This document shows, one piece after another, positions 1 to 29,900 of a stretch of DNA of 64,000 nt. The notes below the pieces were generated by a model. The model saw only the letters and a program-made list of their open reading frames with translations, was not told the DNA's origin and made no database searches. How positions within the stretch are numbered: the stretch's first letter is position 1; each line of letters opens with the position of its first letter. The translations under genes and the position numbers were made by a program. Source of the stretch: Amoebophrya sp. A120 (Eukaryota; Protista; Dinoflagellata); the NCBI GenBank assembly GCA_905178155.1, contig CAJINV010000003.1, positions 7,249,612-7,313,611 of the forward strand, given 5' to 3'.

Positions 1-149
1 TCTCGTGCGGCTGACGACGTGCTGCAGACGGGCCCCTTGTTGTCTGTCGCCCGCTAGGCCGAATCCCGAGGGCCCAATAGAGGCAGCCTGAATTTCTGGC
101 GGCCGGAAGTCGAACCCACTTGCAGCAGAGGCAAAACTCTTGCTTCCAC
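1..149 (-). CDS. Possible exon running off the window edge
   Basis: ctctgcAG|GT acceptor at 150-151 after an AT-rich stretch, followed by GC-rich sequence open in two frames. Confidence 0.3.
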
Positions 150-5982: not shown

Positions 5983-8900
5983 CTGTAGTTGGGACAATTG
6001 GAATTGACAAAAGTAGATACACGAAGGAAATAGCGACTAACTTCGTTCCGATCAGGACACGCATCGGCCGGAAAAGATTAAAAAAGGATCCTTACTCAAG
6101 CTCGCAAATAAGTATCGCGAAGATGATGATGAGCAACAGTCTTATTCGAACTATCTGCTCTCCGTCTTCAATGGATGAACGATACAAGTAAAATCAGACG
6201 CGGCATGTAATACGGCTGCATGCGTAGACAGATGGTTTGTCGACGCATGCAAATGCATCTTTGTCTTTCACAAGTCCGAACTCATAGATACAGTATTCAA
6301 GAAATTATCTCTATCTGCACTTGAAGATGAAAATCTTCCTCATTTCATTTTTTCATGTACCTTTTCACAAACTCCTGCGTGTTGCCGTCTTTCCAAATCC
6401 ACATGCCACTCCCACTGATGCTGGTGCCGTGCTCCCCTAGGCCGCTCATGACCCCGTCGACCCACTGGCCATCGTAGAAAGCGCCCTCCGTCCACTCGCA
6501 CCGGCCTCGACCGTGGCGATCGTCGTCGCGGAAGTCGCCGGCGAAGACCCAGTTGTTGGGCCAGTACATGAGCCCCTTCCCGTGCATGTGTCCGTCCCGC
6601 CACTGCCCCACATACTTCTTCCCGTTGCCCTTCTCGAACCCGGCCTCGTTCCACTCGATTTTTCCGAACCCGTTCACGATACCCTCACTAAACTGCCCCT
6701 CAAAGTAGCTGCCGTCGCTGAGCAGGTAGCTGCCGGCCCCGTGCTTCCGCCCGTTGAGCATCCACCCCTCGTAGCGGCTGCCGTCTGGGTAGATGACCGG
6801 CTCCGTGGTCTTGTACGGCTGCGTCCGGTCCTCGACCACCTCGATGGGGGGCTTGTGCAGTTTCGGCTCCCCAACCGGGATCTCAATGTCGATCGGCTCG
6901 CCGTCCTTGCCTCGCATCTCCATCACGTGCACCTTCTTGTGGCGGCCGCGGATCGCGTACCAGAAGAGGAAGAGCACCAGCACCCCGATCGCCGCCCCGC
7001 CGCCAATCATGACAGGCGGCTCCAGCAGCGGCGTGGCCTCGGTCGCGGACTCCGAGTCGGCCTGCGAACCGGTTGGAATCTGCCGCGTCACCGTGGTCGG
7101 CGCCGCGACGGTGAGGCCCGTGACGGCGAGCCCGGACAAGGAGCTGTCGTAGGTCTGCACCGCGTTTTGGAACGTGGACAGAAAACTCGACTGCTGATTG
7201 GTGATGGCGGAGTCGAAGTTGCTGGCCGTGAGCCCAATGGAGGCTGCACTTGTCCCCACCGGTGCAACCACGGTGAAGGCCACGGCCGCCGCTTGAGTGG
7301 TTTGCAGCTGCCGCTGTTGTAATCTTCTCTCGCGCAGGACGAGGAGGCTCGTGGTAGAAGCTGCCGCGGCGCCGAAGGTCACCGACGTCACTTCAACGTG
7401 ATCCACGGTCAGCTCCGCGATGTTCAGCTTCGTAATCACTGACGTTTTCGTAGCACTGGTAATGGCGTTTCGCCACTGTGTTTCCTCCGCCGAGCCGGCG
7501 GTAAAGCTGGGCACGTTGAAGGAGAGCCGGGAGGCCAGACCCTCTTGCGTCTGCACCTCTGCGCCCTCCACGACGCACATTGGTGCCGTGCCAGGAAGCA
7601 ACACCCCGTCTTTGCATTCGTAGAAACCGTGCAGCGTGTGCCCGTCCGCGCAAACCGGTTCGCATCTCGTGGCTGGTAGAGCGATCCCATCGAGGCAGGT
7701 ACCGAAGGTTTGCTGGTTCACAACGGCAGGTGGCTGCGTGGTGCAGGAGCAGCTCGCAGGTGTGTTTTCTTTGTGCGTACAGGCTTCCTGTGTGCGGTCC
7801 GCTGATGCTGGAATCGTAGCGTTATTGGCCGTACAGTACTGGAGATCGACCTGGATTTGTGATGTCGATGATGTGTAATTGCTTGCGTCAAAAACTTCAC
7901 TGTATCCGGCTATAATTTTTGCGCATCATGATTTGCCTACTTTTGTTTAGCTGAATCGTATGGTGGTCACGATCAGCTTGCTCAGTTTCAGTGCGACTAG
8001 AACCCAGACAAAGATTTGTCGCGGCACGGACGCAACAGCAGAGCCGGTCCAGGTCCAGAAGCAACTTCCTTACAAAAAAATCGTCAAAGTTAAAGTGCAG
8101 CTACAGCTTGTCTCTAGAATATTATAAAATCGCTTCATCTACGTTCTCGCGGTGTGTATGACTACTGGCAGAAGGCAGAAGAGAAAGTCCGGCATAATTT
8201 GGTCGCATCTCATGGCGTGCGAGCTACTGTCTAAAGTATGCAGCAAATGAAATCATCAGGCTGCAGCTGCGACATGCGGCTGCCGAATGTAACAGCTCCT
8301 TTTAATTATCTTTTATACCATCGTCTTGACGTGGTTGGTTTTGTTGGTGTATTGGCACTCCAGCGGCCGATAACGGACTCCAGGCCCGCAGTTTGCATTG
8401 GGGTACTCGCACTCAGTCCATCCGGCGCTTGCCTCGACATAGCCGAACCCGCCTTCGATGGGTGGCAAGTGACAGCGATCCCCGACGTATCCATTGACGC
8501 AAGCGCAACGGGACTGCGGCCCACCGGTGCAGGAGCCTCCGTTCACACATGGCGGGCACGTGCAGAATTCTCCGGAGTATCCGTTCTGGCACTGGCAAGC
8601 ACCGGTCACTTCGTTGCACGTGCCTTGTCCGTTGCAGGTCGAAGCCGCGACGCAGTGCGTGGTGCAGTTCCCCTCCGGGTAGTAATTCGGTTCACATGTG
8701 GCGCATCGTGGCGCGGCGAAGCCGGGCTTGCACTTGCAGATGCCCGTCCCCACCACGCCCGGCTCCTGCCCGTCGTAGCAGCCGATGCTTCCTCCTGCGG
8801 CGCAGTCACACGCTAGATTGCAGTAGTGGTTGTCGGTGGGGTGTTTTCCGTAGAAGCCCGGATTGCACCGACACTGCACGGTTGGGGTCAAGTTGTCAAA

Positions 8901-11900
8901 CCATTTTTGCACATTGAACGTGTACAGCAGTCGGTTTTGTGCGCTGGAATCAGTTGGCAAGAACATTTTTCGTCCCTCCCAGCTCCCAAAGAACTCGGAC
9001 ATCGACCGCAAGTTTTGCTCCTGATTAAAGATTTCCACGGATACGAAGCTCATACTGTTGTCTGCCGAGGCTTGGAGCGACGTGTCCACGAGAATGTGGG
9101 TATTTAAGTCTTCAAACGCTTCTTGGAGAACGTCGGACAGCCCTCTCTCGCGCTTGAACCCAAATTCGTCTCCGGTGTCGTCGTCGTCGGCACTCGTCTC
9201 AAGGCCCTGTCGCCGCGCACGAATGGCTTCCGCCCGCTGTCGCTCGGGCTCTTGCCGCATCTGCAGCTCCGGTACCACGCGCGGATTGTGCAACGGGTTG
9301 GAACTCACCTCGGTGACGATACTTTCTCCATTACTCCTCAACGCCCTCGTGTTGTGCGCATTGTGCAGCTCCGAGTCCGTACCGGGCCACCGCTTGCGGG
9401 GCCGGTGCTTCCCTAACGTCTGCAAGCGACCCAACCAACTATCGTATGCTCGCGATGATCTTGCTTCGCCATCTTCCTCTATCTGATGTTCCTCGGCGCT
9501 GGCAAAAGAGGGCGCCGTCAGCACGTCGGCGAGATTTCGCTGGAGCCGCAAGGCGGGAACCAGCGGGCCATATACATCGGAAGACTGGAAAGCCGAGTGA
9601 CAGGTTCCTGCGCCACAAGCGAGCTGCGAGGCGAGAGTGACTTGTTGGTCCGACGCTTTGCTCGCGAAAGTGCTGTCCAAACCGCCGGACTTGCAGGAGT
9701 GGTCGCAGTTTGATCCGTAAAAGCCGTCGGCGCAGTGGTGACAGTGCGCTCCCTGCCAGTTGAATTTGCACACACATGTGCCGTTGCCGGCACGACTGAA
9801 ACTTCGCGGCGTCGTGCCGTTGCGGAGACACTGATTCTGGTCACTGCACGTGGGGCCGTAGGTCTGGCCAGTGCCATCACACATACAGGAGCTAGGGGGA
9901 AACAAATTGTTCTCGTCCAGCAGATTCAAATTGCATGGCGTGGTCGTGGAGCTGGTCGTCGTGAATTGGTTCGGATCGGCCGGGGCGACCGCGGATATCG
10001 CCAGCACTTCGGCATTGAGGCCCTGCGACTTCATCGCGTCGGCAACGGCCGTAGCGTTGGTCAGTGCCGCATTCGGTTCCGTCACGAGCGACCGCAGCTG
10101 GTTCCAGGAGGAATACGCCTCTTCGTGCGCTGCTGCGCTCGCATTCGCGCTCGCCTGCTGCCCGCTCGTCAGGAAGGTCACATTGTTTGCCACTGCCGCT
10201 GCCTGCACCGCGGCGACCTATTGATTTTTTAAAATCGAAGTCTTCTACTAAGTCGTGTGAACATATTGAGTTTTGGTCATAATTGATCTCTCGCGCTTTT
10301 CTTTTTCCAACGAACCTACCATACATTAAAAAATGTACTGCACAGTATTCCAGGTATGGCTGCAATACAACATCACACACGAATCCTAGCTTCTCCAGTG
10401 AAAATGTCTACACGAAGCGATGAGAGCAGTAGATGCAGCAGAACTACCACGATACATACACACAAAGACTTAATTGATAGATAATGTGAATTTAGTGAAG
10501 ATGTAAATAGCAGTGCTTTTCCACCAACTACATGTCGTCTACAGTACCTGTTGTGCCTGCTCCACTTGCTTCGCTGCTACTTGCTGTGCAGCCGCCGTAT
10601 CGTTCAATCCGGAAGCCAAAGCGTCTGCGAGCATGATGCTCGCAGGCACATTGGCCAACGGTGCCTGCGAAGAGACACTATCCGCTGGCGTTTCCTTAGC
10701 CTCAACCGATTCCGCGGTCAAAACAGGCTTGTCTTCTTCGACCTGATAGGTTTTTTCAAGGAGAATGAACCGACGTTGTACAAGAACTTTGGAAACATAC
10801 ACGCTTCTTTGTTGTATCTAATGTATTTGGATAAAAAAATTTCAAACCAACTGCGCACTTTTGGCGGCCGGCAATGCTTATTCTTATGTATGTTTCGTGT
10901 TGATATAAACTCAGGTCGTGGTAGTCCCCGTCGTAGACTTAGTTTTTTATTTTTTAGTTAATGCATGAAAATGGCGCGACTACAAACCTCAGTCTCCCTG
11001 GCACGACAAAATCTTCGCTCTGTTCCGTGATCTTGAACATGGAAATACACGAATGGATTTAGAAACAGCGTCTCATACCTCGTAATTGACGTTGACACTT
11101 CCCGCCTGCACGGACACGACTTTGATGCGACCCAAAGGGATGCCGAGGAGGGTGGCAATCGAGTTCCGAAAAGATAGCTCGTTAGCGGCGGCATTTGATT
11201 CCCACGTACTGATGTCCATGGAGATCTTCATGTCGACCTGAACCACCGCGACCGTCTGCAGGAAAAAGCCTTTGTGCACAATTTGGTGGGAGTTGGTCGT
11301 GGTCCTCTGGTTGTACGTGTGCGCCACGGTGCCACCAAGTCCGCGCAGAACCATGGTAAAGAACTTCTGCTGCGGGTTCTGCACGTGCGCCCCGTGCGGG
11401 AACGCAGTCTCGGCGGAGGCCGCCACGCTGCCGGCGCACGGCGCGGCGCGGGTGCAGGAGGACTGGGCGCCGAAGGCGTGGATCGGTACTTGCTTGTTCA
11501 ACTTGTCACCCCCGACGGTGAGGTCGTCGATGGCCTCCCCGTCAATGTAGGGCCGGATCTTCAGTGGGGAGGAGAAGTAGATTTTGACCACCACCCATTC
11601 GGTGTTGATGAACGAGAAGAAGTGCAGCCACTGGGTCTGCGGCATACTGGCGGGGATCACCAGCTGGTACTCGTTGTGCACCTCCACCGCCATGGGGTAG
11701 AAACTGTGCCCGAACTCGCAGCCCCGGGGGCAATCGAGATGATCGTACATGTGCTGTCCCGCCGTCACGCGCCCGTCTGTTTTGCGGGTGATCGCAAAGT
11801 GCCCCAGCTCCCGCCGATCCCAGCCGCAGCAATCGTGATCTGCGGAATCCCAGTTCAACAAGGCCATGGGCATGTTCTGGCAAACGTAGCTGCCGCGGGC

Positions 11901-14900
11901 CGGGTCCGTGCACTTTGAGGCGTCGGTGAGCGCGGACACATCGGGCAACACTGTGGCGCGGCCGGCCGGGCCGGTCACTGACTTGCCTGTCAATGTGCCG
12001 TCAAGATCGGACAACCAGAACTGGAACATGCCCGGACTATGCAGGGAAAGCGACTGACTCAGAGGTACTGACTGCTGCGAGCCCTCAGAAAAAGCACACC
12101 GCAATAATATACCAGAGAGCAATCAACTCCCTGCGCTCTGGCACTGGGGTAATGACATACAGTTACAGATACAGATTTTTAGCGCATGAGCAGAAAAAAA
12201 ATCATCTGCCGGTGCGGGTACGGCTACGGCCTGCAAAACAAATAAAAAGTATCTCGATAGGATTGGTAGTTTTCATCTAGGGCAGCAGTCACTCTGTACG
12301 ACCACTCGCTTTCTTTCCATATGGACACCCTGGGTAGTCACACGAGGTGTCGGAGGACCCCTTACCGCGAAAGTAGCTCAAGTAGAACCGACCGTCAGAG
12401 GAGGGGTTCATTTCGGGAGCGTTCGAGAGGCGCCGGCGGGGGCTTTGCACCAGCGATTCGCCGTCGGACGCTTGCAATTGGACAACTTCCCCTGCTTGTT
12501 CTGTACTGGATGAGGTAGAGGTAGAAGACACCAGCGCTCCTGATTCGAGCGCACTTCTCGGCGCGGTAGCCAAGGACCAGGCTCCCAAACGAGACGGCTC
12601 TTCACTCGGGCCCAGCAAGGAGGAAAATTTTGCGATCTTCTTCGAAGATCGCCTTTTCTCCAGCAACTGCCGCCAGGGGCTGGACAACCTGCGTTGATCA
12701 GCGTCCATCATCAAGCGCTTCTGCAGTGCACACGAACCGCCACTAGAAGTAGATGAAGAACCGCAAGAAGTCGACAACACTTGCTCTTGGTCGCTCGTAG
12801 CGAGTAACAAGCCACGGCCCCCTTCAGCGCCGTGGTCATTGACATCATCGTACGCTACCAGCGTCTTGGGGAAGAAGTGCTCGTCGAGTTTGTGCCAAAT
12901 GTTCTTCGGATTGCTGTAATCGAGCAGCTTCACGTGTTCCGCTTCGTGCTCCTGGTTCCATCGGCCGTCCGCAGCAATACCAGATAAGCGGCGCATGCTG
13001 GCGCGATTGTGGCCCACCCAGGTGACGCCGCGAAAGTCGATGTTTGGGTTGAAGTCGCGGGCGGTTGGGTTGTACGTAATCGCGACTGAGTTGCGACCGC
13101 ACCGCCCGACGGGTGCGCCGAGGTACATTTCGTCCTTGTGGTGGAAGTACCCGATGCGAATCGTGTCCACGAGGAACTTGCCGTAGCGGCTTCCGCGGAT
13201 CCCGTACCGGTTTTCCCACGGCATCGCGCAGGTACGGTCCGGGATCAGGGCCTTGGGCGCAAAACACTGAGAATCGGGGATGTTCGGGCCGTCCTCGCAG
13301 GTGAAGCCGCGGTTCGTCACCGTGGGCGCCATGAACCCGATGTGCCGGAACGCCTTTCCGACGACGGACGGAGCCGTAGTTTGGTACAAGTCCGACGCGC
13401 GCGCAGAGCGCCCGTCCAGGGAGTCGGTGCAGGTGGAGATGTCCGTGGTGCCGAGGATGTCCGAGTATTCCAGAGTGAATTCAAGCGAGGTCTCGCGCTC
13501 CTGCCGGTGGAAGTGACCGTGGATGCCGATGTGGTTGTCGGACACAGTTACCTTCCGGAGCTTCAGCGAGCTCGGCTGGTCCGCCCACGTGATCCCCAAA
13601 TGGGCGTTCTTCCAGGCCGTCAGGTATTCAGCAGTAACGCACTCGTAGCCCGTGCCCGCGCAAGCCGCCGGACCGCCGCCGGCTTTGCTGCAGCCACGGC
13701 GGATGTGAAACCCGACCAAATTCCCGTAGGCGTGGTTGCGGGACGACTGCCGGTCCGGTAGATGCGCACCGTACACGTTGCGCTGCGCTTGGTTGTCGCA
13801 CGCCGGCGGCCGGAAGATGAAGCCGTGGTCCCAGGAACCCGCGGCGATGTTGCGCTGCAGACTAGAGACGCTGCCGTCGTAGTGCGAGTCGTAGGTTTGG
13901 AACATGGCCCGCGGCCAGTACACGCTGTCGATGGTGCGCAGTCGCTCGTCGATGTGGCGCCACATGGTGGAGCCAAGATTGTCCTCGATCTGGATGTCCC
14001 GGCCACGGAACACGTGCACCGCCGGGCCGTGCAACCGCGAAAAAAAGTTGTTGCGCACGGCCACGTTTGCCGGCCCCGCGATACGCAAGGCCTCGAAACC
14101 AGACACGAAGAAGGAGCACTGGTCCACGGAGGAGGCGCGGAAGTCGCGACCGGTCCCGGAGAAGAAGTACAGGGAGGGAATCTGGTAATACATTTTCCCC
14201 GTCTGCCGGAGGTACACGCTCGACAAGGCTGCTGTCCCCACGATCGAGCCGTCCTCGCTATCGACCACCGTAATGCCCGCCCCGTGGTTGAAGTTGTGAT
14301 CGAAGCCGTGGGGGAACTGCTGCGGGCTGAGACTGGCAGTCTCGGCCGAGCCGAACCGCACATTGCGGTCGAGCAGCGCGACGTGCGCCTTGAACCAAAT
14401 GTCGGCGTTCCCAGCTAGAATTTTGCCGGAAAAGTGCCGGCTCTGCGCCTGACCCTGAATACCAATCTTCACTGCTTTCCCGAACTCGAACTCGCTCCCG
14501 GTGACCAGTTCCGGCGCACTGGTGATGCGGAAAACTTCGGCTTGCGTCTTGATCTCGGCTGCTGAGTAGGGGTACTCGGTTGGAGTCACCTCGATTTCCA
14601 TGCCGACTTTCCACTCTGTCAAAGCAGCCTCGCAATCCACGAACACGAAGCGGTCGGTGGGGTGCGCAGTCTTTGCCAATCCGGTGAACGGACACACCAG
14701 CGGCTTGCCGTGCATCTGGAGCTCGCCCAAGACCCCGATCAACTTGTTGTTCATGTCGATGCCGTTCCGCATTGTGATCCCGGGCCACCCTTCCCCGTGT
14801 TCGCCGTAAATCTGCCGGCACTCGGCATTGGAGTTGGGACAGCTCTCTGGTCCGTGCAGCAGCACCTCCGCGTTCCCGAGGTACGGATAGCCTTTGCTGC

Positions 14901-17900
14901 CGACGAACATTTGGCCGTGCAGCTGCACCGCGTGCGCGCGCAGCGTTTGCGTGCTGGTGTGGTTCGCGCAGTCCGTCCACCCCGTGGCGCACATGTCTTT
15001 CACCCCGGTGATGAACTGGTTCTGTTTTTCCGTGGTGTTGTAGAACACCTCGTACTCTCGGCACGTCAGCATGCTGGGCTGGTCGTTCTTCCGACACGGC
15101 TTCTCCAACGGGCAGTGCGACGTGCCCGTGCCCGGGTCCGTGCAGAACTCGTTCTGCAGCAGTGGCGGCATAAAGGTGAGCTTCCCCAGAACCGTCAGCC
15201 GCCGGATCGCGGCAGTCTCCGTCGTCAGAATCACCGATTTGAACTCGTCGATCGTGACCACCTCATTCGGCTCGGGCACCTTGCCACTGGGCCAGGTGTC
15301 CGGGTTCTCCCAGAGCTGCGCCGTCGCGGACGTCTGCGCCGGCGCCACGGGGCAGCCCTCGACGGGGCACTGGAATGCGATGGGGTTCACCGTGCTCCAC
15401 CCCGTCTTGAGGCTGTGTACCACCGCGAGGCTCCCGCTCGCACCCATGTCGGCCAACTCCTGCTGGTAGCGGAAATCGGTCGTCGTGTAGCTGAAGGTCA
15501 GATTGGTCGGCACCGTGATGGTGCCGGCGTCCAGGTCGTCGCGGCCGAGCGCCTGCACGGTCTGGAACACACCGCTGCCCGAAGACGTCTCTTGCGTGAA
15601 GGTGAGGAAGTTACTCAGGTACCGCTGGATCAGCCGGTCGGGGTTGTCGCGGTCGCGCCAGTCGCGCGTCAGCATTCCAAACCGGTCCATGGACTGCTGC
15701 ACCTCGTACAGGTCCAGCGGATGCGTCACCAGGTGTGTGTCCGATTTTGTGACCCGCAGTTCCGGCACGTCCGTTTCGTTGGTCCAGCCAGTCGTTGCAG
15801 TGCCGTCCGTGCGAAACTGCCCGCCCGGGTGCTGCACGACCACCTTTTTGTACGTTTGGTAGCTGTGGTGCGCGGTGCTGAGCTGACACACGCCCTCCGC
15901 GAACCGCGCACAGCACCCGTTTCCGGTCGCGCGGAACGTCATGAACATACAGTTCGTCTCGAGCAGACACAGTGCCTTGCACTGCGCCAGAGAGGTGCGC
16001 TGCCCCGCGGTGTTCTGGTCGTCGCAGTCCGCGTAGTACCCCGTGCGCGACTTACGAAACCCGGCCGTGTCGCAATACCCGGTTCCGTGCAGCAGCATGT
16101 CCTTCTGACCCGTGCTGTTGCTGAAGCTACCCAGCTGCACAAACATCGCGTGCGCGCCGTGGCCGTGGTACGGCGTGGGAAACTCGTTGAGCTTTTGGCT
16201 CGGCTCGAACTCCGTGTGTACCCGGTACAGGGCGTGGGCCCCGTCCCAAGTCGAGGCCAACTTGCCGACCTGGAAGGTCTTGCGGAAGTTCGGTCGGAAG
16301 TAGGGATACATGGTGCCGCACCACTCCTCGTCCTGCCGCTGCCACCCGTGCCCGATCCACGTGGACCATTTCATGAAGTCCATCGGCGTGGGGTGCGGGT
16401 CGAACGAGTACCAGAAGGGCAGCTCCGCATAGCGGGCGTATGGCGTGTGCCCTATCGTCGACGGGTACATCGGCATCTGGCCGGTAGTCACGCTGTCGTC
16501 CATCACCATCGCCGGCGGGGCTACGTGTTGTTTGTTCCATTTGGCCAGCACCATAGGCCAGCACCACCCGTTGTGGCCGTTCGGCGAGCACGCCATCGAC
16601 CGGTAGGGGATATCGTCGTGCCCCGCCGCGGAGCTGACGCGCAGCTCGTGGTTGTCGAAGTTGGGGAGCGCGTACCCGGTGAAGTCCATGATCCCAGCGT
16701 ACCGTACGTGCACGTGCTCACGGTTGCAGTGCATCTCCTTCGAGTTTGGCGCGTTATCGATGAAGCGGCACAGGGGCCCGGTCGCTGCGCGGTCGTAGGC
16801 ATCTGCGTTGGGGGGCGGCACGACGCCTTGCGGGGTGTGGAGCGCGAGCGAATTCCGGGTCCACTGGTTGAAGCCGAACTGGCCCGTCATGTAGCCACCG
16901 TGGGTCGTGAACCCGGTGACGGAGCCGTCCAAATCGTGCCAGATTGCGTACCGGCTGTAGGATTCCGTCCACAGCAGCCCCCCGGTCGCGTTCACCAGGG
17001 TGACGGCACTCATGCGGTGCGTGGGCACCAGGTAACCAAAGGCGGGGCAGTTGAAGCCGCCGGCGAACGGCGGCTGGTCGCCGTAATTGACGATGGTGAT
17101 GTTGTGCATCCAGTACCCGTCCTGCCCGTTGAAGTAGAACCCCAGACCCGGGTTGCGCCGGTTGGGCTCCTCCATGTCCCCGACCATGAGCCAGTTTTGG
17201 AACATCGGCCGCGCCGGGTTGTCGTCCGGGTCCGTAAACTTCGTGACGTAGCCAACGCCCGAAGGCTCGATCACGTTGAAGTCCCAGTAGTGGCAGGGGT
17301 TGCAGAGCTTCACAAACAGCGTCGCCCCGCAGTGCACCGCGGTGAACTTGTTGACGTACAAGTCCAGGTTCGGAGCCCACGCCGGGAAGAACTGGATGGC
17401 CATGCCGCAGCCCACAGCGGAGTTGTTGACCATGTGGTTGTACTGGATGCTCTCCCCCGCGAACTCGCCTTTCGGGTTGAAGCGGTACCCGAACGCCGAG
17501 GCGTAGCCGACGTTGCTGTCCCAGATAACGCTCCCATGCACTGCCCAGTAGGCCGCCGGGGTGGTATCGTCCGCGAGGCCGAGCACCATCGGCAGCGCCT
17601 TGATGAACACGTTGTTGCGCCACACGGTCTCCTTTTCGTCCCCGTTCTCGATCTGCATGTTGTGAGCCTTGATCAGGTACCCCACGTTGCCCTCCGCGAC
17701 GGTAAACTTCGTGGAGTGCGCCACCACGCCGCGCATGAAGGAGTGGTGGATCGCGCAGTTGTGAACGTACGACTTGTACACGTCGACCTGCCGGCCCGGG
17801 GACATCTTGTGAAAGTGCGTGCAGTAGCGACCCATCTGGCCTCCCTGGCCGCAGTTCCGGACCTCCACGTCCTTCAGCCGGTATTCGCCACCGTAGAACG

Positions 17901-20900
17901 CACCGGTGTGCACGCCCCAGTCGGCGAGGTGCGAGTCCTGCGAGCCCTGGATCACGATGTTGCGCGACAACGTGCAGATGTGGGGCCGCAGATCCGGGAT
18001 TGTGTTGCGGTCGTCCGCAAAATACCGGTACTGGATGGCCTCGTGGTAGTTTGCCAGCGGCTTTGCGAGGAACAGCACCGCCACCTCCTCATACTCCGGA
18101 GGCTTCATTTCTGTGACCACCGCAGCTCCGGTGCTGGCACGCATTCCCTCGCCGAAGGGCCCCACGGATTGGTCTCCGCTCACGACCGTCGGCACGCCGT
18201 CAATCACCAGCATCCCGTTGGCGCGGTCGTACAGGGTGAGGTTTGCGGAAACGAGCGTGGCCTCCTCGACAGGGTGGGCGAGGACGAGGTCGTAGCCCGG
18301 CTCCCAGTTCGGCAGGGCGTCCACGATCACAAAGTCCTCGCCCGGGTTGGCAGACTCCGCGAGGCGCACACAGTTCCTGGTCCGCCGCCCGTGGATGTCC
18401 AGTTTCCCGACCTTGCGTGCGATCGAGCTGTCGCCACCCAAATTGCCCTGGTTCGTCACGACCACCATCTTCTGCCCGATGTACGGCAGCTCCACGGTTT
18501 TGTATTTGTCGCCGTGGAGGGTGAGGACAACGCGGTTCTCGTAGGGAATCAGGTCGGTCCCGATTTCCAGCGTGCCACCGTGGACCCAGAACCACGTGGA
18601 ATCGTAGGTGAGCCGCGGTTTCGTGTTATCGAACACCATCACGCCCGCCACGTAGGTGAGTCCCAGCTGGGGCACGGACTGGTCCACCATGATGGCCTGC
18701 CCCTCGGGGACCCACGCGGAGTCGCCCCTCCGCGGCAGCTCCTCGTTCAGCCAATTGGCCGGGTCGCTCCACTTGTCCAGATAGCGGTAGAAGATGCGCA
18801 GCCGGTCCGTGCGAATCGCGAATCCCTTGCCCGGGATGCGAACCGAAAAGCTCGAAGGCTTGATTCCGTCGGACCGGGGGGCAGTGCGACACTGCATCGA
18901 GTCGTCAGTTCGGTTGGCCCAGTTGGTCACTTCCATGCAATCGTAACCGTTGAACGCGACCTCTGCAAATCGGGGCCGGAACAGGTACGACTCGGTAACG
19001 CTGGTGTTGCTGGTCAGGTTCTGCACGCGATCGGAGATATTCTGCGCGTCGCGTTCCTGCATGACGATTTCCATGAAGTCGTCCAAGTCTTCTGCTCGCA
19101 CCGCAGGTGCAACCAGCGGTCCGAATGCGGCCGAGTTCACACCTGCGCTTCCGGTCGCAAAAACATCACCGAGATTTTGCCCGGAAAGAGTCACAAGGGT
19201 GTTTCCACGGGCAGTGCCGTTTCGCGGATCGACGTCGGATATGAATGGCGTCAGGTGGTGCATTGCCTTGTAGTACAGCAGGTCCTGACTGTTGTGTCTG
19301 CGGAGCGTCTCGCTGGTGCGGAGGAAACGCACTGCAGAGGCGAGAATTGGACCTGGCCCTTTGGAACCCACCGCCGTATCATTGGAGGTGCTGTTGTCGT
19401 CCGCAGGAGCGGTGGACGAGGCAGCGCTAGCCCCCGCAGGAGAAGTTGCGTTCACGTCAATTTCAATGTGGTGCACGACTGCCGATGTCGAGACGTCGGA
19501 GTTGGACGTGTGCACGTACGAAGTCAGGTCGAGATAGTACACTCCGCGAGTGGCCATCGACAGTCCGGACGCGAGCAGCGTTGACTGAACGGAACCCGCA
19601 GTGCCAACAAGTTCGACACTGTGCAGCTCTTGGCGATGCAACGTGCTGTTTGACCCTGCCGCTGTTCCGTTTCCGAAATGGCTGAAAGCCGGCGTGATGT
19701 AGCCGTGCACGTGACTGTTGCCTGTACTCTTTGTTGCGTGCACGCGAATGTCAAATTGGGCTCGCTCATCGTCCACAAGGAAAAGGAACCGTCCGTAATC
19801 CCGCGGATAAACCGGCGCCATGTGATTGGGCATCATGACGAACCCGCTCGTGGTCTGCGAGAGCCGAACGGTGTGCAGCTTGCCGGGCACCGGAGAGGTG
19901 GATTCGTAGGAATCCGTTGCGACTTGTACCGCGCGGAAGGAGTCTCCCGGAATCACCGAGGTCGTCGAAGAACCCGCGCTACTAGCGTCCCCAGGAGCTC
20001 GGTTCGCGAGATTCTCGTAGTGCGCGTCTGGGTGTTTCACCTTCTCGACCACCACTGGGCAGTGGGCGCCGCTGGCGTACGCGGCGGCGGGAATCACATA
20101 TCCCGTGAACTTCACTTCGCGCAGCCGACAGCCGGCCGTACTCTGTCCGAGGTACCGGAAGACCCGCCCGATGAAGGGCGCATCTAGGTCGACGGTGTTC
20201 CAGCCGCCCTTCACGTAGCCCGAACTCGGGATGGAGTACATCGTGGTGTACCCCCCGGTTCCCGTGTCATTGGCGACCTGGAACCGCGTGTTGCGTAGCG
20301 TTGCACGGTCGTCCTGGGAGTAGGGCGGATAGAACTTCACTTGTTTCACCAAGGCCAGGTACCCCTCGGGCAGGGTGAAGCCGACGCTGCAGTCGGACCC
20401 CGGCAGGTCGGGGTAGTCGACCAGGTCGTTGTCAAAGAGTTGCATGAAGCGCCAAAAGGACGTGTCGGTCATGGCACCAGAGTGACTTCCAAAAATTCTA
20501 GCGGGCTCACTCAAGAACGGCGACACGCGAATGTCCTCGTAGAAGTACTTCCGGTCGTTTTCCGTCATCTCGGAGTTGTTGAAATACAGTTCGTTCAACA
20601 AGTGCAGATTCTGGTGCCGCGGGGTGCGCACTGTGAGTTGATCATACCGCGCGGCTCTCACCTCCGCGGGTCGTCCACAGATCGTCACGGAATTCTGGTC
20701 CGGCGACGTGCCGAAACCCCGGCCGTGGATGTGGAGGTCGACCCCTCCTCCAAGCCCGCCCTGCAGCGGATCGCACGAGGTGGCGGCGTTGGGCTGCTGG
20801 CAGGGGAGGTCCAAGGCCTGCGCCGAGGTGTTAGCGCTTCCCGCGGGGACAATGCCGGTTAACGAACTTACCCCCGATATCTCAAACAGACTCTGGAAGA

Positions 20901-23900
20901 CCGCGGGTTTTCCCTGCACCGAGGACCGTGCCAAGGTGTACCCGATGTTCGGTTGGTACACTTTCACTTCGTACAGTCCCGCCGGAACCGTGTTTGCCGC
21001 AACGGTGCATTTGATGTGCAGTGCCTCCACCGTCGCCGAGCTGTCGTCCATTGCACCCAGGCGCGCCGGATGATCCACCGGTGAGACGTCTGCTAAGTAC
21101 CGCCATTCCGAAACCTCGCAAGCAAGTGCACTGTCCCAGTCCATTCCTTTGCCGATGACCACCATGGGACTAGACGGCGGCTCCGCAACGTCACTGCGCG
21201 GCAATTGCTCCCCGGTGCCGTTTCCGCGCAGATGCGGAGGCGGGTTCTCGACAAACACGTCGATTTCGGCCCCGCCGAACCCGTGCGGGTTGGACACGTG
21301 GCTAATGTAACTAGTGCTGTCGTACGTGAAGTTCACCCGCGCGACGTCCGACAGGTAAGACGGAATTTCGTGCTCCACGTCGCCGTAGCCGATCGAATCC
21401 GGGTCGTCCAAGCGATAGGGCACGAATCCCATGTACTGCAGCGTGGCAGCCTCGGATTTGTGATTGAAGCGGCCGATCGACGTGCACAAATCGTAACTCA
21501 GAATGCACTGTCCCAGCTTGAGGTCGACCCCCAAACTGAAGGACCGACAGCCCTGCCAGAACCGGTCCACGCACTCCTGCTCGCAGTCCTCTCGTGTGAA
21601 GATCTCCATCGGCAGCAGCTCGTTGGCTTTCGCGCCCGGCGCTGCGGAGGACTGCAAACAAACCCCCTCAGACTGAACGGCAGTCGACGTAAGGTTCGTT
21701 GGCCGAATGCCGAACTGGATGTTGGGCACGTTCAACCACGAGGCGAAATCCGAATGGGAATGAATCGGCGTGTCCGCGTTCGGGGTGATACAGCGAAACT
21801 CGGTGTGGGTTGTCTTTTTCATGGGGCACTCGCCGATCGTGAGCATTTGGGGATGCTTGCACGTCGTCGAGGACGGATCGGGCGGGTCGAAAATCGTGTT
21901 GTAAACAAGAAAAACCGAGTGATAGCCGGTCTCAAAGCCGAAGCCTCGACCGGTGATCTTCACCTGCGTCCCGCCAGCGATCGATCCGCTTCGCACGTCG
22001 ATGCTGGCCATGTCAAAGGCTTGCGAAAAGCGAAGGTTCGGCGTGTGTCGTGTCCCTGTCATGTTCAAGGCGTATGTCAAGTGGTGTTTCAACGTGGAAT
22101 TAAAATTAGCCGGGAGTTGGTGGGGCTGGATGTTGCTTGCCTGCAAATTTGACGCCGTGTAGTCCGCCTCGATTTTCAAATAAGAATTTTGCATCCCAGC
22201 CGGAAACTGGCAAACGTCGGCGTTCAAAATCGAAATGTCCATCGAGCCGCAACTCGAGCCGAACCAGCCCTCGTAGCAGTTGCAACTCCCATCCATGGGG
22301 TCGCAGAACCCGTGGCTCGCGGCAGTGCAGTTCGTGTTGGCCTCGCAGTACGTGCCACAGGTCGGGCCGTAGTAATTGCGACCGCACTGCGAGCAGTCGT
22401 AGTTGCCATCCCAGTTTTTCTCACAGGAACAACTTCCGTCGGACGCACAAGCGCCGTGCCCGTTGCATGTGGTCGCGGCGTCACAGTAGGTGAAGCACTG
22501 GCCCGCCGGATAGTAGTTTGGCGCGCACTGGTCGCACTTCGCACCGCCCCAACCGGGCAGGCAGGTGCACGCTCCGGTCTGCTGATCGCACGAGCGAGAA
22601 CCTCGCTGGTGGCACTCGCACTTCTGGTCGCAGAGGTCCCCGAAGTAACCGGGCTTGCAGACGCAGTTCGTGGAACTGCACGCGATCGTGCCCCGGGCGT
22701 TGCACAGTTTCGGCAAACAGGACAGTGCGCAGATGCCGTGCGGAACAAAGCCCGCCGCGCACTCATCGCACCTCGCCCCCGTCCAGCCCGGTTTGCAACT
22801 GCAGGCCCCGGTGTAGGGATCGCATTGACCGCCCGCCAGCGTTCCAGCCGCGTGGCAGCTGCACTGCCCAGAGCAGTCGGTGCGGAAAAATCCGGGCTTG
22901 CATGTGCATTCTCCCGTTCCCTCTGACGTGCCCACACCATGCGCTGATTGCGTGTTCTGCGGGTGACAGGTAGAGTGATACTGGCACGCTGCGCCGTAGT
23001 AGCCGTTCACGCTGTTGGGATCTTTTGGTGGACAGCGGCACGCGCCTGTATTCGGATCGCAGTCGCCGTTGACGCAATTACAGTAGAACGAGCACTTCGG
23101 CAGAACGGAAGTAAGATCGCGTGCCGGAACGAGATACCGGTCTGTCCGAAAGCTGACGTCAACACCCGGACCGTCGTGCCCAGGCTTTTGCAGACCCATG
23201 AAAGTGTTCGCTTTGACCGTAATAGTGAACAGTTCCTGTCGAACATCGCCGGGGAAACTAAGAACAACGGCCTTGGCCTCGTTTGCCGTACTGTAGTTGG
23301 AATGGAACGCAACGTCCGTCACATTTCGCTGGTCAATCGGCTCGCAGGAAAGCGCAGAACCGCAACTCTGCACCTCGACAACGGCGTCCAAGCTTCCGCT
23401 TTTGCCTTCGACTTCCTCTGAAAACAGCAGAAAAACTCTGCTTCGATTCTGCACGTGATCAAACAACACTTCGTAGTCCACCACGCCCGGGCGCAAACCA
23501 CTCGCCGCGGTCTCGTTTACTTCCACGTGATAGAACCCCTGCGTGCTTAGCGCAATGTTTTGCGGACCGTTTCCGGAGGGCTGCGCAGCACGCAGCACAT
23601 TCGGCGGGATCTCAATGTGAAACGTAGCACCATCGACAAACTTATACTGCGTAATGCAATCAGGCGAAATGCCTTGCTCTTCCGGTGGAGTACTACTCGG
23701 TGGCGGCGCGGGGCTGGAACAATTGGACATGCTTGGCGCAAACACGAGATACTTCCCGTGCACGACCAGTTTGTGCACCGGAATTTCAAGCATGCCCACA
23801 CCCGATGGGGCGCTCGTGCTGGGCGGCGCACTCGACGAGGGGCCGCCCGGCGACGAAGCATTTGTGTCGTTACTGGTCTCGTTCATGGTGGAGTCCACTC

Positions 23901-26900
23901 CGCTGCCTGGTTGCCCGGTCGGTGAAGAAGATCCTGCCGCGGGTCCCAGAAAATCAGAAGCATTTGAAGAATCTGACGCGTTGCTCATGTTGCTGCCATT
24001 TGACGTATTTGACATATTCGACCCGAAGTGGTGCGTCAAAAGACGCAGGGCTGCGTCGGCATCATAGTCCTCGTCAAAGCGAATAGCAGAAGCAGCGCTA
24101 GGCTGAGCAAAATCTTCTTCCGCTAAAGCGTACGACCCGTCTTCATCTCCTTTTTGCAAATCCTCATAATTTGCAGCCGAAGCATCTTCTGATAAACGCC
24201 TCCCGTGAGCTGCAACCCCTCCTGGAGCACTGAGCAATTTAACCATGCCTTTCGCGCCCGGTACGACTTCAATCGGTCGATCAAACGCCACAAAGACCAA
24301 GCCCTCGGGCGAAATGAAGTTCGCCTCGGGCTTTGCCACGGGCGCGGCTGGGGCGGGGTGGCTGTCGCACGGACTGAGTCGCGGGGAGGCGCCAGGGCCA
24401 TGGAAATGCTGCGCCAGAAAAGCGCTGTTCAACTCCGCAATGATGCCCGTCGCTGCGGCACTGCGCGTTCCGTAGGCATCCGCAGCTACTTCTGGAACGA
24501 CGGACAGCGAAAACCTCCTCCCGTCTTGCATGTCAAGAGATGCATCCCCGAAGGGCGGCGGTGCGGTGAAGCCGGTCGCGATCAGTCGAATTCGCCCGTG
24601 CTGCGCGAGGGTGACATTGGTGACAGTCATCGCCCGATTGTCGCACGATTCGGGACGGCAGTCGAGATCAAAGCCACAGTCGGTCAAAGTGAACGACGAA
24701 GCAACCGCGTTCCCCGTCACCAAAAGCTGACTAACGTCGCGCGACAAACGCAATTCAAAGGCGAGCGTCGTGTTGTCACTGAGCATCATTTCCTCGACGG
24801 CGCGATCCCCGAACGCGAGTTCCGAAATGGAATCGTTAGCGAAGCGAAGACTGTAAAAGGCCTTGGTCTCGAACAGTGTGGGTTTGGGCGCCGCTTTTGC
24901 GAGGACACGGAAATAAATCTGTCGTCCAGCGTTGAAAACGCCCGCGCCCTTCTCCGGCAATCGCATGCGGATCATCTTTGCGTGGTGGTGGTCCGACACC
25001 TCAAACATTCCCCCCGCGTCCGCCATCGTTGCGAGTTCGGCATCCGTCCCGAAATCGAGTATTCGAACGTCTTGTGCCTCAAACAGCTGCGCCACACCGG
25101 CGGAAACCGTCCACTGCACCTGCTCCCGATGCGCGTGCGCAGAGCTGATAGTTGCGTTGCTACCTGGCGTCCATTCGCAGGGTGCGAGCTCATGCGGGTT
25201 ATGAGCGGTCTGGTTGATGGCACCCGAGAGCGCAAAGTCGTAGGTCGCGTTCACAAGGTTCATTTCGTTGTTCCCGGACGAATCAGTGACCAGCCCAGGC
25301 AAAATGGTGAGCTGCAACTTCCGCCGCAGAGGGTGTGGACCAGTAGCGGGGATCCGGATCTGAACAGCAAGGAGCCCGGGAATCGTGTCCGTAAACCGTG
25401 CGTCAGTGCCGTAACTCCCCAGAACACTGGCCATCGAGGCTCCTGGAACTTGGAGGGCGTTCGCCGTGTATCCCTTGTTGTACATGACACCCGTCACATG
25501 CGCGCTCACGTCCAGCATTTCGTTGTCGCACGCCGAATGGCAGTCCATATCCCAGCCGCAATCCGACAACTCGAAGAACTGCATCTCATTCACACCGTTC
25601 TTCTTCGAGATTTGATGGCTAAAGTAGACTGAAAACACAACGTGGTAGTTGCTGCCGGAAGGATCCAGAAGCTCCAGGGGACTGTCGATGTGAAATATCG
25701 GGTAGACTGGCATGCTGCGGGGCTGCGTTCCGCTCGGTGCAGTGTTGAATGTGTACTCGAGCGGCGGAGTCAGAGTGCTCAACAAACCCATCTTGTTGCC
25801 GTCCCGATCCTGTAAAAGGCCATAGCGCTCCGTGTGCAAGTGGTACGCTTTGCCAGGCTGCAGCTCAGTGAATTGGCTTTGCTGTGATGCAGCCCCGGTA
25901 GACGAGGAAGGGCCGGCAGTTTGGTTGGCTCCTGATGTCGTGTTGGCGCCGTAGAGAGTGAGCACGCTGGGGGTGAGGTACAGGTATTTGTCGGACAGAA
26001 AACGATGGAAGGGCTGGTCCTTCAGAATGGCTAGGTCCAAGGCGAAATCCGGTGGCATCGAATAGTTGGCACCACTGTGATGCGCCCTGATCTCGATCAC
26101 GCCCAGGTTGGCGAAGTCGATGGGTTCCGAGAACTTAAGGATCAGGTTCTCAGTTGCTGCAGAGACCCCCACAGCTCCGTGCGCCGGATGCGAACTTGCG
26201 GTGTCCAGAATGGGACCCTGAAGTGTCATCGGAGCCTTCGGAAACCATCCTACGGCACACTGGTCGCAAGTTGGTCCTGTGAATCCAGTTTCGCAGACGC
26301 AGTCTCCGTTCAGGTTGCAGGAGCCCTTGCCGTTGCAGGTGGTTTCTGCTTTGCAGTACTTGCTGCAGCTACCGGGCGGCGCAGGATAATAGTCGGGCTT
26401 GCACGTCTCGCACAGCGCGCCACTGCGCCAGGGCCAGCACTGACACTGGTTGCCAGAGCAGCTCTGCGTACCTCCGGCATCGCAGTTTACATCGCAAGTC
26501 ATGCTGCAGTTGCCGCTCGGAACACGGAAGTCTGCGCAGAATTCGCAGTTGGTGCCATTGAATCCGTCGAAGCAAGTACAGCTGCCGTCGCCCTGGTTCC
26601 CGTCGTTGCAGGTTCCGGACAGAACCGGGGTGGGCGCGAACGCTACGCCGTCGTGCATGTTCACCCGGTCGGCGTAACAACGACACTCGTTCTCGCACTT
26701 CGTACCCCACCAGTTCGGTTTGCAGTGGCAGGCTCCTGTCCACGGGTCCACCTGATGGGTGCCTGCCGGGCTGCACGCCGCGTCGTTTTCGCAGTATGCT
26801 CCCCAGAAATAATCTTCGCACTTGCAGCGAGGGTGGGTGACGTTGACCAATCGTTCCTCCGTTTCCTCATTGACCAGGGCGACCTGACCACTACTAGTGC

Positions 26901-29900
26901 CATTAGATTTAGAGCCATTAGTTCCATTTGTGCCATTAGCCGGCACACTCGTCGATTCCGTCACGTTCCGCATCTCTTCTCGCACAAAGGGGTGGTTGCA
27001 AACCCCCCGCTTGTTGCAGATAGCGATCGAATCGCACTGGCTGCAGTCCGCCCCCGTCCAGCCGTGATCGCACGTACAAGCCAAAATGTCTTGCGTCTGC
27101 CCGTTCACCTGTCGCTCGACGGCCCCGCACTGCCCGTGGCCCGAGCAGTGCTGTGTGGCGTTACAGAAAACGGAGCACGAATTTCCGTAGTAGTTCGCCG
27201 CGCATGTGTCACACAGCGCTCCGTTGAAGCCCTCCTTGCACTGGCAAGTGTTTTGTCCAGGCGCGGTGGTGGCATCGGAAGAGCAGGACAGCGTGTTGCG
27301 CGGGTCGCACGGAGTCTTTCCAACACAAACCGTATCGCAGTGCGGAAAATTGATGTACCCTGGCGCGCACTGATCGCACCTCGGTCCGGCAAATCCCGTC
27401 TTGCAGACGCAGGTCCCATCGGCGCGATCCCGTTGCGGGTGAAAGAGCCCGTCGTTGCAAAATGCCGTGCCGGCCTGGTGGCAATTGCAGTCGCGGTCGC
27501 AGTTGGCGCCGAACCGGTTTCGTGGGCACTGCACCTTGCAAATACCCGCGTAACTACCGTCGTTGGTACTATCACTGGCGCTGCAGCAGGCACCATCCTT
27601 CTCCGGATGGCATCGCCTGGAACACATGATGGTGGTCACCATGGACTCGTCGTTCGCCTTGGAGGCGTCATTGCCGCCGCCCGGATGCACCACAATGGGT
27701 AGCACCAACCGATGGGCCCCCGCGATGAAGCCATTCTGTGCAATGTGCACCTCTACGTGCCGCATTTCCTGCGTCAGATCAATGTTGGCCTGCAGGATCG
27801 CGATACCCGTACCCATGGTGGAATTGGCGAAGCTCTTCACCATGTCGGACGCGTGTTGCGCCACACTCACCACGTCGTTGTGATTCGCCAGATAGAACCC
27901 GCACTCGTTTCGAGGCTCGGTCAAATTTGTGAACACGGTCTCGAGGCTGGAACAGTGCCCCGCGGAAGTAGAGTCGTTGAAGCGCTTCATTTCCGGCCGC
28001 TCGCTAAATTGGCACTCGACCGCGCCGCAATCCTTGATGTGCACGTCCGCATCGGCGCCCACCGTTGTTTGCAGGGCTCTGTCAAAGTGCAGGAAGAAGA
28101 GCACAGTGGCCATGGTCGCGTTGCCAGAAGCTCCACTCGGACCGCTGTTGTGCTCGAAAACTCTGTAGTCAAAGAAAAGCATATGCGGCGCCCCGTTTCC
28201 GTCTGTAGGAGCTGGGTGGTGCTGGTTATTTGTGCTGAAGGTGTACATGGTTTCATTCGTGAACTCGTAGCCTGGCGTGGGTTGGTTCCAACCGACATAC
28301 TGCTTATTTCCGACAGCGTTCGCGTCGCGGATGACCGCCTGGGAAAAATCGAGAAAGTACGTGGAGTTTTCTTCCAACGCTTGCTGGAGTTCCTGCGACG
28401 CCAGGGAGAGACGTCGACCCGCGGCATTCCGGTATCCGCCTCCTGCGACGGAGTCGTAGGGCAGCGGCAACGCGATGCGAAAAACTTCGTTCGCAGGTTC
28501 CACTTCGACATCGGTGTAGTTCACAACCGGCTGCGGATTCACAAAATCCACATAACGCTTGTCAAAAACGGCAGTGTCGTTCGGCTGCTTCATCACTTTG
28601 ATAAAACCTGACACGGCAACAACTTCATGCGAAAACGTCAGAACGAGCGGGTCGTGAGGAGCGTGGTCCGATGTACCGTTTTTCGGCACGGAGTCATAAA
28701 CCAATAGCTCGAGCGGGTAGCTCGGCCGCGCGGATTCGTTCGCGGCACGTGTCTGCGTAAGATTTGTCTTCGGGTGGTAGGCAGACCGACACGCCGCACA
28801 GTTTCCTGGCCCGGAACAGGGCTGATCGGTACGCTTGAAGCCGTCCGCGCACTCGAGCACCATACTGGCGGCCGTCGCAACAGCTGACGAACCGCTGCTC
28901 GGGGCTGCAGAAAGCGCTCGCGGGGAAGATACTCCCGGTGTACTATCAGGTGACGAAAAACCCATGGCTACGGCAGGTGTTGTCAAATCGGCGTGAAGCT
29001 CGGAGCTCGAATCAACTAAGTGATCACTATCCCATGCGATCCGGGCGTCATCGTCCGCCAGGTGTGCCGGTGCGGCTTTCATGCCGAACGCCGCAAGGCG
29101 CTGCAGCAGTGCACTTGAAGAAGGTTTGCGCGCCGCGGGGAGCGGCGCGGCAGAAGATGCATCATCGGCGCTAAGACCGTCCGCGCGGAGGGCACGGCGG
29201 CCAGAACCTTTTGGCGTGGCGAGCACGTAATTTGGCGGCAAAGCTAGGTTACACTCCGCACCTGTGTATCCCTGTTTGCACACGCACGATCCCCCGGAGG
29301 TGCCCCGGATGCAATGTTCCGTTCCAACCGGGTCACACTTGCACTGGTTCTCACATCGGGTTCCGTAGAAGTTTGGCTCGCAGACGCACTCCAGTTGTCC
29401 GTTGCGCACTTGGCACTCGCCTTGGCCAGCTACGCAGTGCGGACACGTGGCGGCCGGCCGCGTGATGCCTCGGTTCGTGCTGGTCAGCAGGCAGCGGGTA
29501 TTGTCATAATTTCCGTGGAACAATTCGGCGCGAACCAGGGGCGTGTATGACAAGTTGTCGATGAGCTTTGTGCTCTCGTTTGCGAGCGGAAACACCGCGG
29601 GCGCGTACTCCGTGGCGAAGCTCTGGCCCTGGAGAAGATCGCCCGCAACCACAACCCCGAAAGACTCCCCCGACAAAGCCGATTTTGGGAAGACTTCGAG
29701 CGCCGCAGGGGTGCTGCCCCAGTGGGATTTGTGCATGCAAGGCTGTGGTCGAAGAGCAGGGGCCGCAGTCGTGCTAGTACCTCCGCCCGCCCCGCCCGCG
29801 GTGCAATAACTCTCGGCCTTCACCATGTTGATGACCACTTTGGCCTCGGTGGTTACGGTCGCCACACCGCTGTACCGCCCGACGCGCATGGCTTCGAACC

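What the first reader, a model, noticed from the sequence alone, without database searches (positions are those of the whole stretch)
12034..12326. TIR/TSD-bounded non-canonical intron that the giant gene must splice
Seen: 285 nt flanked by an exact GTCC duplication. The termini pair over about 40 nt (TATGGAAAGAAAGCGAGTG / TATGCAGGGAAAGCGACTG, plus an exact TGACTGCTGC). Removing the element and one GTCC restores C-P-G-M. No register gives GT-AG. Without splicing, the protein stops before its membrane anchor. Known: Amoebophrya genomes carry introners with inverted and short direct repeats and an unresolved splicing mechanism. Inference: a DNA-transposon-derived intron whose retention could also yield a secreted ~8,150-aa isoform.
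Basis: partly seen in the sequence, partly recalled or inferred. Interest (0 to 1): 0.8.

Follow-up and report, generated by a model that had tools for sequence, protein, structure and literature searches.

The report
Known Amoebophrya hairpin intron, cleanly spliced
A small hairpin-ended insert, likely an old transposon, interrupts a giant predicted surface-protein gene of what is likely the marine parasite Amoebophrya and is missing to the base from transcript assemblies although it lacks normal splice signals; this intron class was published in 2021, and no sign of the proposed secreted short form was seen.

Summary
Real, but a published class that this scan has already reported many times on other DNA of the same genome. 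Three likely-RNA runs (two samples, one study) skip exactly 289 nt at 12033/12323; two DNA-like runs of one sample hold the insert. The gene's other three introns are GT-AG. The better parse is a 284-nt TAT...ATA element with a 5-bp duplication carrying one mismatch (GTCCA/GTCCG), not 285 nt with GTCC. This fits the introner elements of Amoebophrya A120 (PMC7789003). No second copy was laid at 80% likeness, so it is a singleton-type element. In-frame GT-AG alternatives exist (292 and 298 nt) but are not the assembled form. The 289-nt cut keeps a cysteine found in 15 of 18 relatives. The junction allows five cut registers, including the '1+4' rule from earlier notes, and excludes one. The retained, secreted isoform is unsupported: no contig holds the intron, and retention would cut a conserved block. 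Side observation: this 29-kb coding sequence has 1 such intron where about 27 are expected.

The parts
12038..12321 (-). 284-nt TAT...ATA element (likely an old non-autonomous TIR transposon); GC 0.47 against 0.61-0.63 in the flanks; no long ORF; no Rfam match
12322..12326 (-). upstream copy of the 5-bp direct repeat (gene sense GTCCA)
12033..12037 (-). downstream copy of the 5-bp direct repeat (gene sense GTCCG); the mismatched fifth base is the wobble base of a Pro codon and is the one kept in the transcript contigs
12276..12321 (-). 5' arm of the imperfect terminal inverted repeat
12038..12089 (-). 3' arm of the imperfect terminal inverted repeat
12034..12322 (-). 289-nt intron in the predicted '1+4' register (AT..CC); four other registers give the same mRNA
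   Evidence: skip of 289 shown; register inferred
12037..12328 (-). in-frame 292-nt GT-AG alternative that would drop the conserved Cys; not the assembled form
12289..12291 (-). stop codon inside the element that ends the unspliced frame
12323..36750 (-). 24.4-kb open coding stretch upstream of the element (TIG, laminin-EGF, G8, CEMIP beta-helix domains); no TAT..ATA candidate above 10/20 arm identity inside it
   Evidence: RNA laid only on 12323-13700
11079..12033 (-). exon after the element; conserved block of fibrocystin-like proteins
10743..11078 (-). canonical GT-AG intron, 336 nt (donor GTATGA)
10548..10742 (-). 195-nt exon
10218..10547 (-). canonical GT-AG intron, 330 nt (donor GTACTG)
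8319..10217 (-). exon with EGF-like repeats
7851..8318 (-). canonical GT-AG intron, 468 nt (donor GTATAA)
6345..7850 (-). last coding exon with the predicted transmembrane helix (about 6951-7007) and MORN repeats
   Evidence: RNA laid only on 7700-7850

Best explanation
This is a 289-nt non-GT-AG intron that is absent from the transcript contigs, likely left by an old non-autonomous DNA transposon of the Amoebophrya A120 introner type and likely removed by a relaxed ordinary spliceosome guided by the predicted pairing of its two ends. Shown: the insert is in DNA-like contigs, the skip is exact in likely-RNA contigs, and the product is a 9,660-aa open frame. Inferred: a TAT..ATA element inserted into the exon with a 5-bp target duplication, and both the duplication and the arms have since drifted. 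Inferred: in the pre-mRNA the arms pair over about 45 nt and hold the exon ends together, and the cut falls one base before TAT and four after ATA. That makes the intron start read A-U-A-U-G, like this gene's canonical donors (GUAUG, GUAUA, GUACU) without the first G, and leaves one copy of the duplication so the protein is unchanged. My odds: real intron of the A120 class 0.9; transposon origin 0.8; spliceosome with the 1+4 cut about 0.55.
For: Joint 12033/12323 'skips 289' in X3 and X6 and X4: 3 of 3 likely-RNA runs that cover the junction. X3 and X6 also skip three GT-AG introns, so they hold spliced RNA. X1 and X2 run through the element unbroken. Cys two places before the G-M-like start of the next exon in 15 of 18 relatives inspected (of 33 hits). 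TAT starts, an A-run near position 10-12, and a direct repeat 4 nt before one arm and within 2 nt of the other match the A120 description (PMC7789003 section 11). Among the five allowed registers only 1+4 gives both U at +2 and A at +3, as in 3 of 3 canonical donors of this gene. The transcript keeps the downstream G of the mismatched pair, which excludes the 0+5 register and allows 1+4 (no other letters listed). Nearly all spliceosome proteins and U2, U4, U6 (U5 in A120) are present while U1 snRNA was not found (PMC7789003 section 10).
Against: This one junction cannot fix the register: GT..TA and TC..AG give the same mRNA. The 1+4 rule comes from unreviewed earlier AI notes, not from my calls. 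No lariat or branch point was tested. No second copy at 80% likeness in X1 or X2, none in JGI metagenomes, no look-alike among earlier findings, so mobility is not shown. No empty genomic site was shown (one search gave two spurious loci). The paper found no general transposase for these elements in A120 (section 16). The three RNA runs come from one study and are contigs whose RNA status is a guess by the tool; raw-read runs X11 and X12 laid nothing. The A-run sits one base earlier than the paper's 'TAT + 7 + AAA'.
Confidence: 0.55

Rival explanations
1. The same intron is removed by a non-spliceosomal, hairpin-guided cut-and-ligate enzyme system, as proposed for euglenid nonconventional introns.
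For: Long end-to-end pairing; in-frame GT-AG pairs nearby are not used; U1 snRNA not detected (PMC7789003); euglenid nonconventional introns share paired ends and TSD-like repeats (PMC11282704 passages).
Against: The 1+4 register reproduces the canonical U+2/A+3 donor bases. Fritillaria's TIR/TSD non-canonical introns appear to be excised by the spliceosome (PMC11282704 passage). No such enzyme was looked for here.
Confidence: 0.22
2. The spliceosome uses a half-canonical register at this site, either the GT donor at 12326 (GT..TA) or the AG acceptor at 12037 (TC..AG), rather than a fixed ruler.
For: Both registers give the observed mRNA; the AG follows a pyrimidine run; half-canonical pairs such as GT-AC and CT-AG lead the A120 list (supplement Table S4).
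Against: Those table entries are each only 2-3% and may reflect how aligners place ambiguous junctions (my inference). Earlier notes report one fixed register across informative copies (untested by me). The GT donor here has C at +3, unlike 3 of 3 canonical donors.
Confidence: 0.13
3. The intron is a regulated switch: retention yields a secreted ectodomain of about 8,150 aa.
For: The unspliced frame stops before the predicted membrane helix; a signal-peptide-like stretch lies at aa 308-330; contigs drop rare variants, so low-level retention is not excluded.
Against: No contig lies inside the element in X3, X4 or X6, although X3 kept two low-depth contigs inside canonical introns. The stop falls at about aa 8,153, inside a block aligned without break in relatives (aa 8092-8508). 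Any frame-breaking intron upstream of a membrane anchor gives this possibility, so it is not specific to this element.
Confidence: 0.06
4. The junction is a reverse-transcriptase template-switch artefact caused by the direct repeats and the hairpin.
For: Direct repeats plus secondary structure are the known signature of such artefacts (PMC4176328 passages); all RNA evidence here is presumably cDNA-based.
Against: The skipped form is the only form assembled in 3 of 3 runs; the skip is needed to join a conserved block that is continuous in relatives; the element's GC is low (0.47), unlike the high-GC artefacts described.
Confidence: 0.03
5. An ordinary GT-AG intron (292 nt, 12328-12037, or 298 nt, 12365-12068) is the real one.
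For: Both are in frame.
Against: The contigs skip 289, not 292 or 298; both would delete the conserved Cys.
Confidence: 0.01

Closest known systems
Introner elements / non-canonical introns of Amoebophrya sp. A120 (Farhat et al. 2021, PMC7789003; read: abstract, sections 10, 11, 12, 16, 32, supplement passages and part 3 of 5; figures not seen)
   Same: Non-GT-AG borders, TAT-starting inverted repeats with an A-run, 3-5-nt direct repeat over the junctions, hairpin, length near the 240-nt A120 mean, RNA-supported removal, mixed with canonical introns in one gene.
   Different: Arms are longer (about 45 nt) and more decayed than the 8-20-nt perfect repeats used to define families; the duplication has one mismatch; no repeated copy was found, so it fits the paper's 'singleton' class; the host gene is almost free of such introns.
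Fritillaria borealis non-canonical MITE-derived introns (as summarised in PMC11282704; passages only)
   Same: TIR and TSD, non-canonical borders, recent gain, spliceosomal removal proposed.
   Different: Fritillaria has preferred borders (AG-AC, AG-AT); here the borders are set by the target duplication.
Euglenid nonconventional introns (PMC11282704; passages only)
   Same: End-to-end pairing, TSD-like repeats, no GT-AG.
   Different: The euglenid CAG(+4..6)/CTG(-8..-6) pair and pyrimidine|purine rule were not tested as a family; in the 1+4 register the intron has TGG at +4..6, not CAG.
Non-autonomous TIR DNA transposons (MITEs) as introners (PMC12130899; passages only)
   Same: Short, non-coding, terminal inverted repeats, target duplication.
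   Different: No copy family, no transposase and no empty site shown for this element.

Membership tests
Amoebophrya A120 introner element | Removed from RNA at non-GT-AG borders | tested here: met
   Skip of 289 in X3, X6 and X4; none of five registers is GT-AG
Amoebophrya A120 introner element | Inverted repeat between the two intron ends, able to form a hairpin | tested here: met
   15 of the first 20 nt pair, exact 10-nt core
Amoebophrya A120 introner element | 3-5-nt direct repeat over the junctions | tested here: met
   4-nt exact, 5-nt with one mismatch
Amoebophrya A120 introner element | Arm starts TAT, then about seven variable bases, then three As | tested here: met
   Both arms start TAT with AAA at positions 10-12, one base earlier than the paper's wording
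Amoebophrya A120 introner element (repeated family) | Repeated elsewhere in the genome | tested here: not met
   Only the home contig was laid on the element among 264,029 (X1) and 259,971 (X2) contigs at 80% likeness; diverged copies could be missed. Fits the paper's singleton class instead.
Amoebophrya A120 introner element | Host is Amoebophrya A120 | tested here: inconclusive
   Name comes from earlier notes on the same genome and the motif match; my protein searches gave no named Amoebophrya hit
MITE / non-autonomous TIR transposon | Empty orthologous site in a relative's DNA | tested here: inconclusive
   P0001 (69% identical) reads through the site, but its contig may be RNA; the metagenome scan gave two spurious loci
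MITE / non-autonomous TIR transposon | Cognate transposase with the same ends | not testable with these tools
   No genome held for this window
U2 spliceosomal intron | 2'-5' lariat and snRNP dependence | not testable with these tools
   Needs bench work or lariat reads
U2 spliceosomal intron | GT-AG (or GC-AG) borders | tested here: not met

The most novel reading that the evidence does not exclude
This site is a natural competition test: a decayed, single-copy hairpin element is cut at its own non-canonical register although an in-frame GT donor lies 6 nt and an AG acceptor 3 nt upstream of the predicted cuts, and a GTAAGG donor 43 nt upstream. So in this parasite end-pairing would outrank GT-AG in splice-site choice and keep working after the element has aged. 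The near absence of such introns in this 29-kb coding sequence would then point to strong regional insertion bias or purging.
Probability: 0.4. Interest if true: 0.5.

Novelty: already known. Interest (0 to 1): 0.22.

Why it matters
How Amoebophrya removes tens of thousands of non-GT-AG introns was left open in PMC7789003, and three searches returned no paper that resolves it; subscription papers are not searched. This element adds one RNA-confirmed case with two useful features for a splicing test: unused in-frame GT-AG sites beside it, and a mismatched duplication that removes one register. It does not by itself reveal the machinery, and the scan has many richer windows on the same class.

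Tried and rejected
No whole genome held, so no genome-wide BLAST or transposase search. Element against the window by blastn-short: only a 20-nt match at 37989-38008 (E 0.004) and short chance hits. A loose scan for 4-bp repeats with 15-nt arms did not discriminate: 17 hits at 12/15 or better against 4-15 in five shuffles. Rfam: 0 matches. Arm pattern in JGI metagenomes: 0 matches. Earlier findings by sequence: none. Related loci: the first alignment was too loose; the second gave 2 of 159 pattern hits, both unrelated-looking frames with stops. Raw-read runs X11 and X12 laid 0 reads, so they are no test. Estuary run X8 covered only 12493-12703, no test of the junction. Lack of RNA contigs inside the element is weak evidence against rare retention. 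In one search my two window rows of the small alignment were out of frame and blank; the in-frame comparison is. The homologue search in the 560-2000-aa range found only P0001, with no name. A paper search on retention and nonsense-mediated decay returned nothing on Amoebophrya among 12 listed. Supplementary figures of PMC7789003 (S19-S25) could not be seen and may already show the 5-bp repeat geometry in detail.

Full report
Observation. GGAC lies at 12034-12037 and 12323-12326 with 285 nt between. The host gene is on the minus strand: a 24.5-kb open frame from the ATG at 36750 runs into the element and stops at 12289-12291. Removing 289 nt joins it to the next exon as C-P-G-M; the five equivalent registers are GT..TA, TC..AG, CC..GT, CA..TC and AT..CC. 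The element is AT-richer than its flanks (GC 0.47 against 0.63 and 0.61), has no long ORF and no Rfam match. Its ends are predicted to pair over about 45 nt: fold z -2.98, 2 of 200 shuffles as stable; arm score 39 against at most 37 in 20,000 shuffles. Structure alone is modest evidence, since one unrelated window stretch scored 36-37 and 1 of 10 shuffled windows gave a better TAT..ATA candidate.

Correction of the parse. After reading earlier notes on this genome I rescanned for TAT..ATA elements with 5-bp repeats. The element is then 284 nt (12038-12321) between GTCCA and GTCCG in gene sense; 284 + 5 = 289. The mismatched base is the wobble base of a proline codon, so either copy could drift without changing the protein.

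RNA and DNA evidence. Thirteen runs were listed and eight laid. X3 and X6 skip 468, 330 and 336 nt at GT-AG borders and 289 nt at 12033/12323; X4 skips the same 289 nt. That is 3 of 3 likely-RNA runs covering the junction, from two samples of one study, all as contigs; in X3 one 31.6-kb contig carries all four junctions. X1 and X2 (one sample, possibly the window's source) run through the element with no joint. X11 and X12 laid nothing and X8 did not reach the junction. No other letters were listed, so the transcript keeps the downstream G; this excludes the register that keeps the whole upstream repeat (0+5) and leaves five.

Canonical alternatives. In-frame GT-AG pairs exist: 12328-12037 (292 nt), which would drop one Cys, and 12365-12068 (298 nt) with a GTAAGG donor. 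Neither is the assembled form. Of 33 relatives found with the downstream exon, I inspected 18 whose match reached the exon start; 15 of 18 have Cys at the place that only the 289-nt cut keeps. Contigs collapse minor forms, so this shows the main form only. The 292-nt donor (GTGTCC) is also a poor match to this gene's GTA donors, which weakens the point that it is ignored.

Host protein. The spliced model is 9,660 aa with TIG, laminin-EGF, G8 and CEMIP beta-helix domains and C-terminal MORN repeats, a predicted membrane helix at aa 9441-9459 and a signal-like stretch at aa 308-330 just before the region that aligns with the start of relative P0003, so the true start may be a later Met. Calling it fibrocystin-like is my recalled label for this domain set. 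The unspliced product would be 8,153 aa and end about 40 aa into a block that aligns without break in P0001, P0002, P0003 and P0010. No contig lies inside the element in X3, X4 or X6, while X3 kept two low-depth contigs inside canonical introns. I therefore give the secreted isoform about 6%.

Is it mobile? At 80% likeness only the home contigs lay on the element in X1 and X2, each about 105 million letters; the arm pattern had 0 matches in JGI metagenomes. No empty genomic site was shown: P0001 reads through the site but its contig type is unknown, and the metagenome scan gave nothing useful. Transposon origin is an inference from the ends and the duplication.

Mechanism. I commit to removal by a relaxed U2-type spliceosome, with the paired arms bringing the exon ends together and the cut one base before TAT and four after ATA. 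From the paper: nearly the whole spliceosome is present and U1 snRNA was not found. From unreviewed earlier notes: the same register across many informative copies. Not shown: lariat, branch point, snRNP dependence. Rivals are a hairpin-guided enzyme system (0.22), a half-canonical register (0.13), regulated retention (0.06), a reverse-transcriptase artefact (0.03; signature described in PMC4176328, passages) and a canonical intron (0.01).

Comparison with what is known. PMC7789003 (abstract, sections 10-12, 16, 32, supplement passages and part 3) reports that 65% of RNA-supported A120 introns are non-canonical, that many have 8-20-nt inverted and 3-5-nt direct repeats, that A120 arms start with TAT and end in three As, and that 24,976 such elements are singletons. 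This element meets the structural features and fails the 'repeated' feature as tested, so it files as a singleton element of that class. PMC12130899 (passages) assigns A120 introners to several transposon kinds, TIR elements among them. PMC11282704 (passages) gives the Fritillaria and euglenid parallels. Searches listed no paper that resolves the mechanism.

Side observation. At the paper's 1.42 introns per kb of coding sequence, the 28,983-nt model should hold about 41 introns, about 27 non-canonical; it shows 4 and 1 (Poisson 2e-13 and 7e-11). This assumes even spread and no hidden in-frame introns; RNA was laid only on 7700-13700, but no TAT..ATA candidate above 10/20 and no 250-nt stretch below GC 0.48 lies in the long exon. 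Earlier notes describe giant genes of the same genome with 134 and 149 such introns, so gene size is not the cause.

Verdict. Interest 0.22.

Noticed in passing
window 6345-36750: The 29-kb coding sequence has only 4 introns (1 non-canonical) against about 41 (27) expected from the published A120 density; the whole window shows only 2-3 TAT..ATA candidates, while earlier notes list 13-149 per window elsewhere in this genome.
   Followed up: partly
window 42872-42980: Second TAT..ATA element, 109 nt, 18 of 20 arm bases paired, 5-bp repeat with one mismatch (GGAGA/GGAAA) that would be synonymous (Ile) in the minus-strand frame; an informative test of the 1+4 rule. No RNA laid.
   Followed up: partly
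window 45329-45605: Weaker TAT..ATA candidate, 277 nt, 14 of 20, repeat ATTTG/ACTTG; removal opens plus-strand frames across the site; within the range of shuffles.
   Followed up: partly
window 4510-37533: The X3 contig is 31,601 nt; if it has no further introns it spans about 37533 to 4510, giving about 780 nt before the first ATG and about 1.8 kb after the stop, over the 233-aa frame at 5376-6077.
   Followed up: no
window 35700-36750: About 300 low-complexity, Ser/Arg-rich codons precede the signal-like stretch; the true start may be Met 257, 265 or 275.
   Followed up: partly
window 37989-38008: 20-nt match (19 of 20, inverted) to the inside of the element, upstream of the gene; may be chance.
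   Followed up: no
window 7851-11078: All three canonical introns have GTA donors and are followed by exon bases GTC.
   Followed up: no
window 12493-12703: An estuary metatranscriptome (X8) holds a 213-nt contig with no other letters over this stretch, so a near-identical organism may occur there; one short piece only.
   Followed up: no
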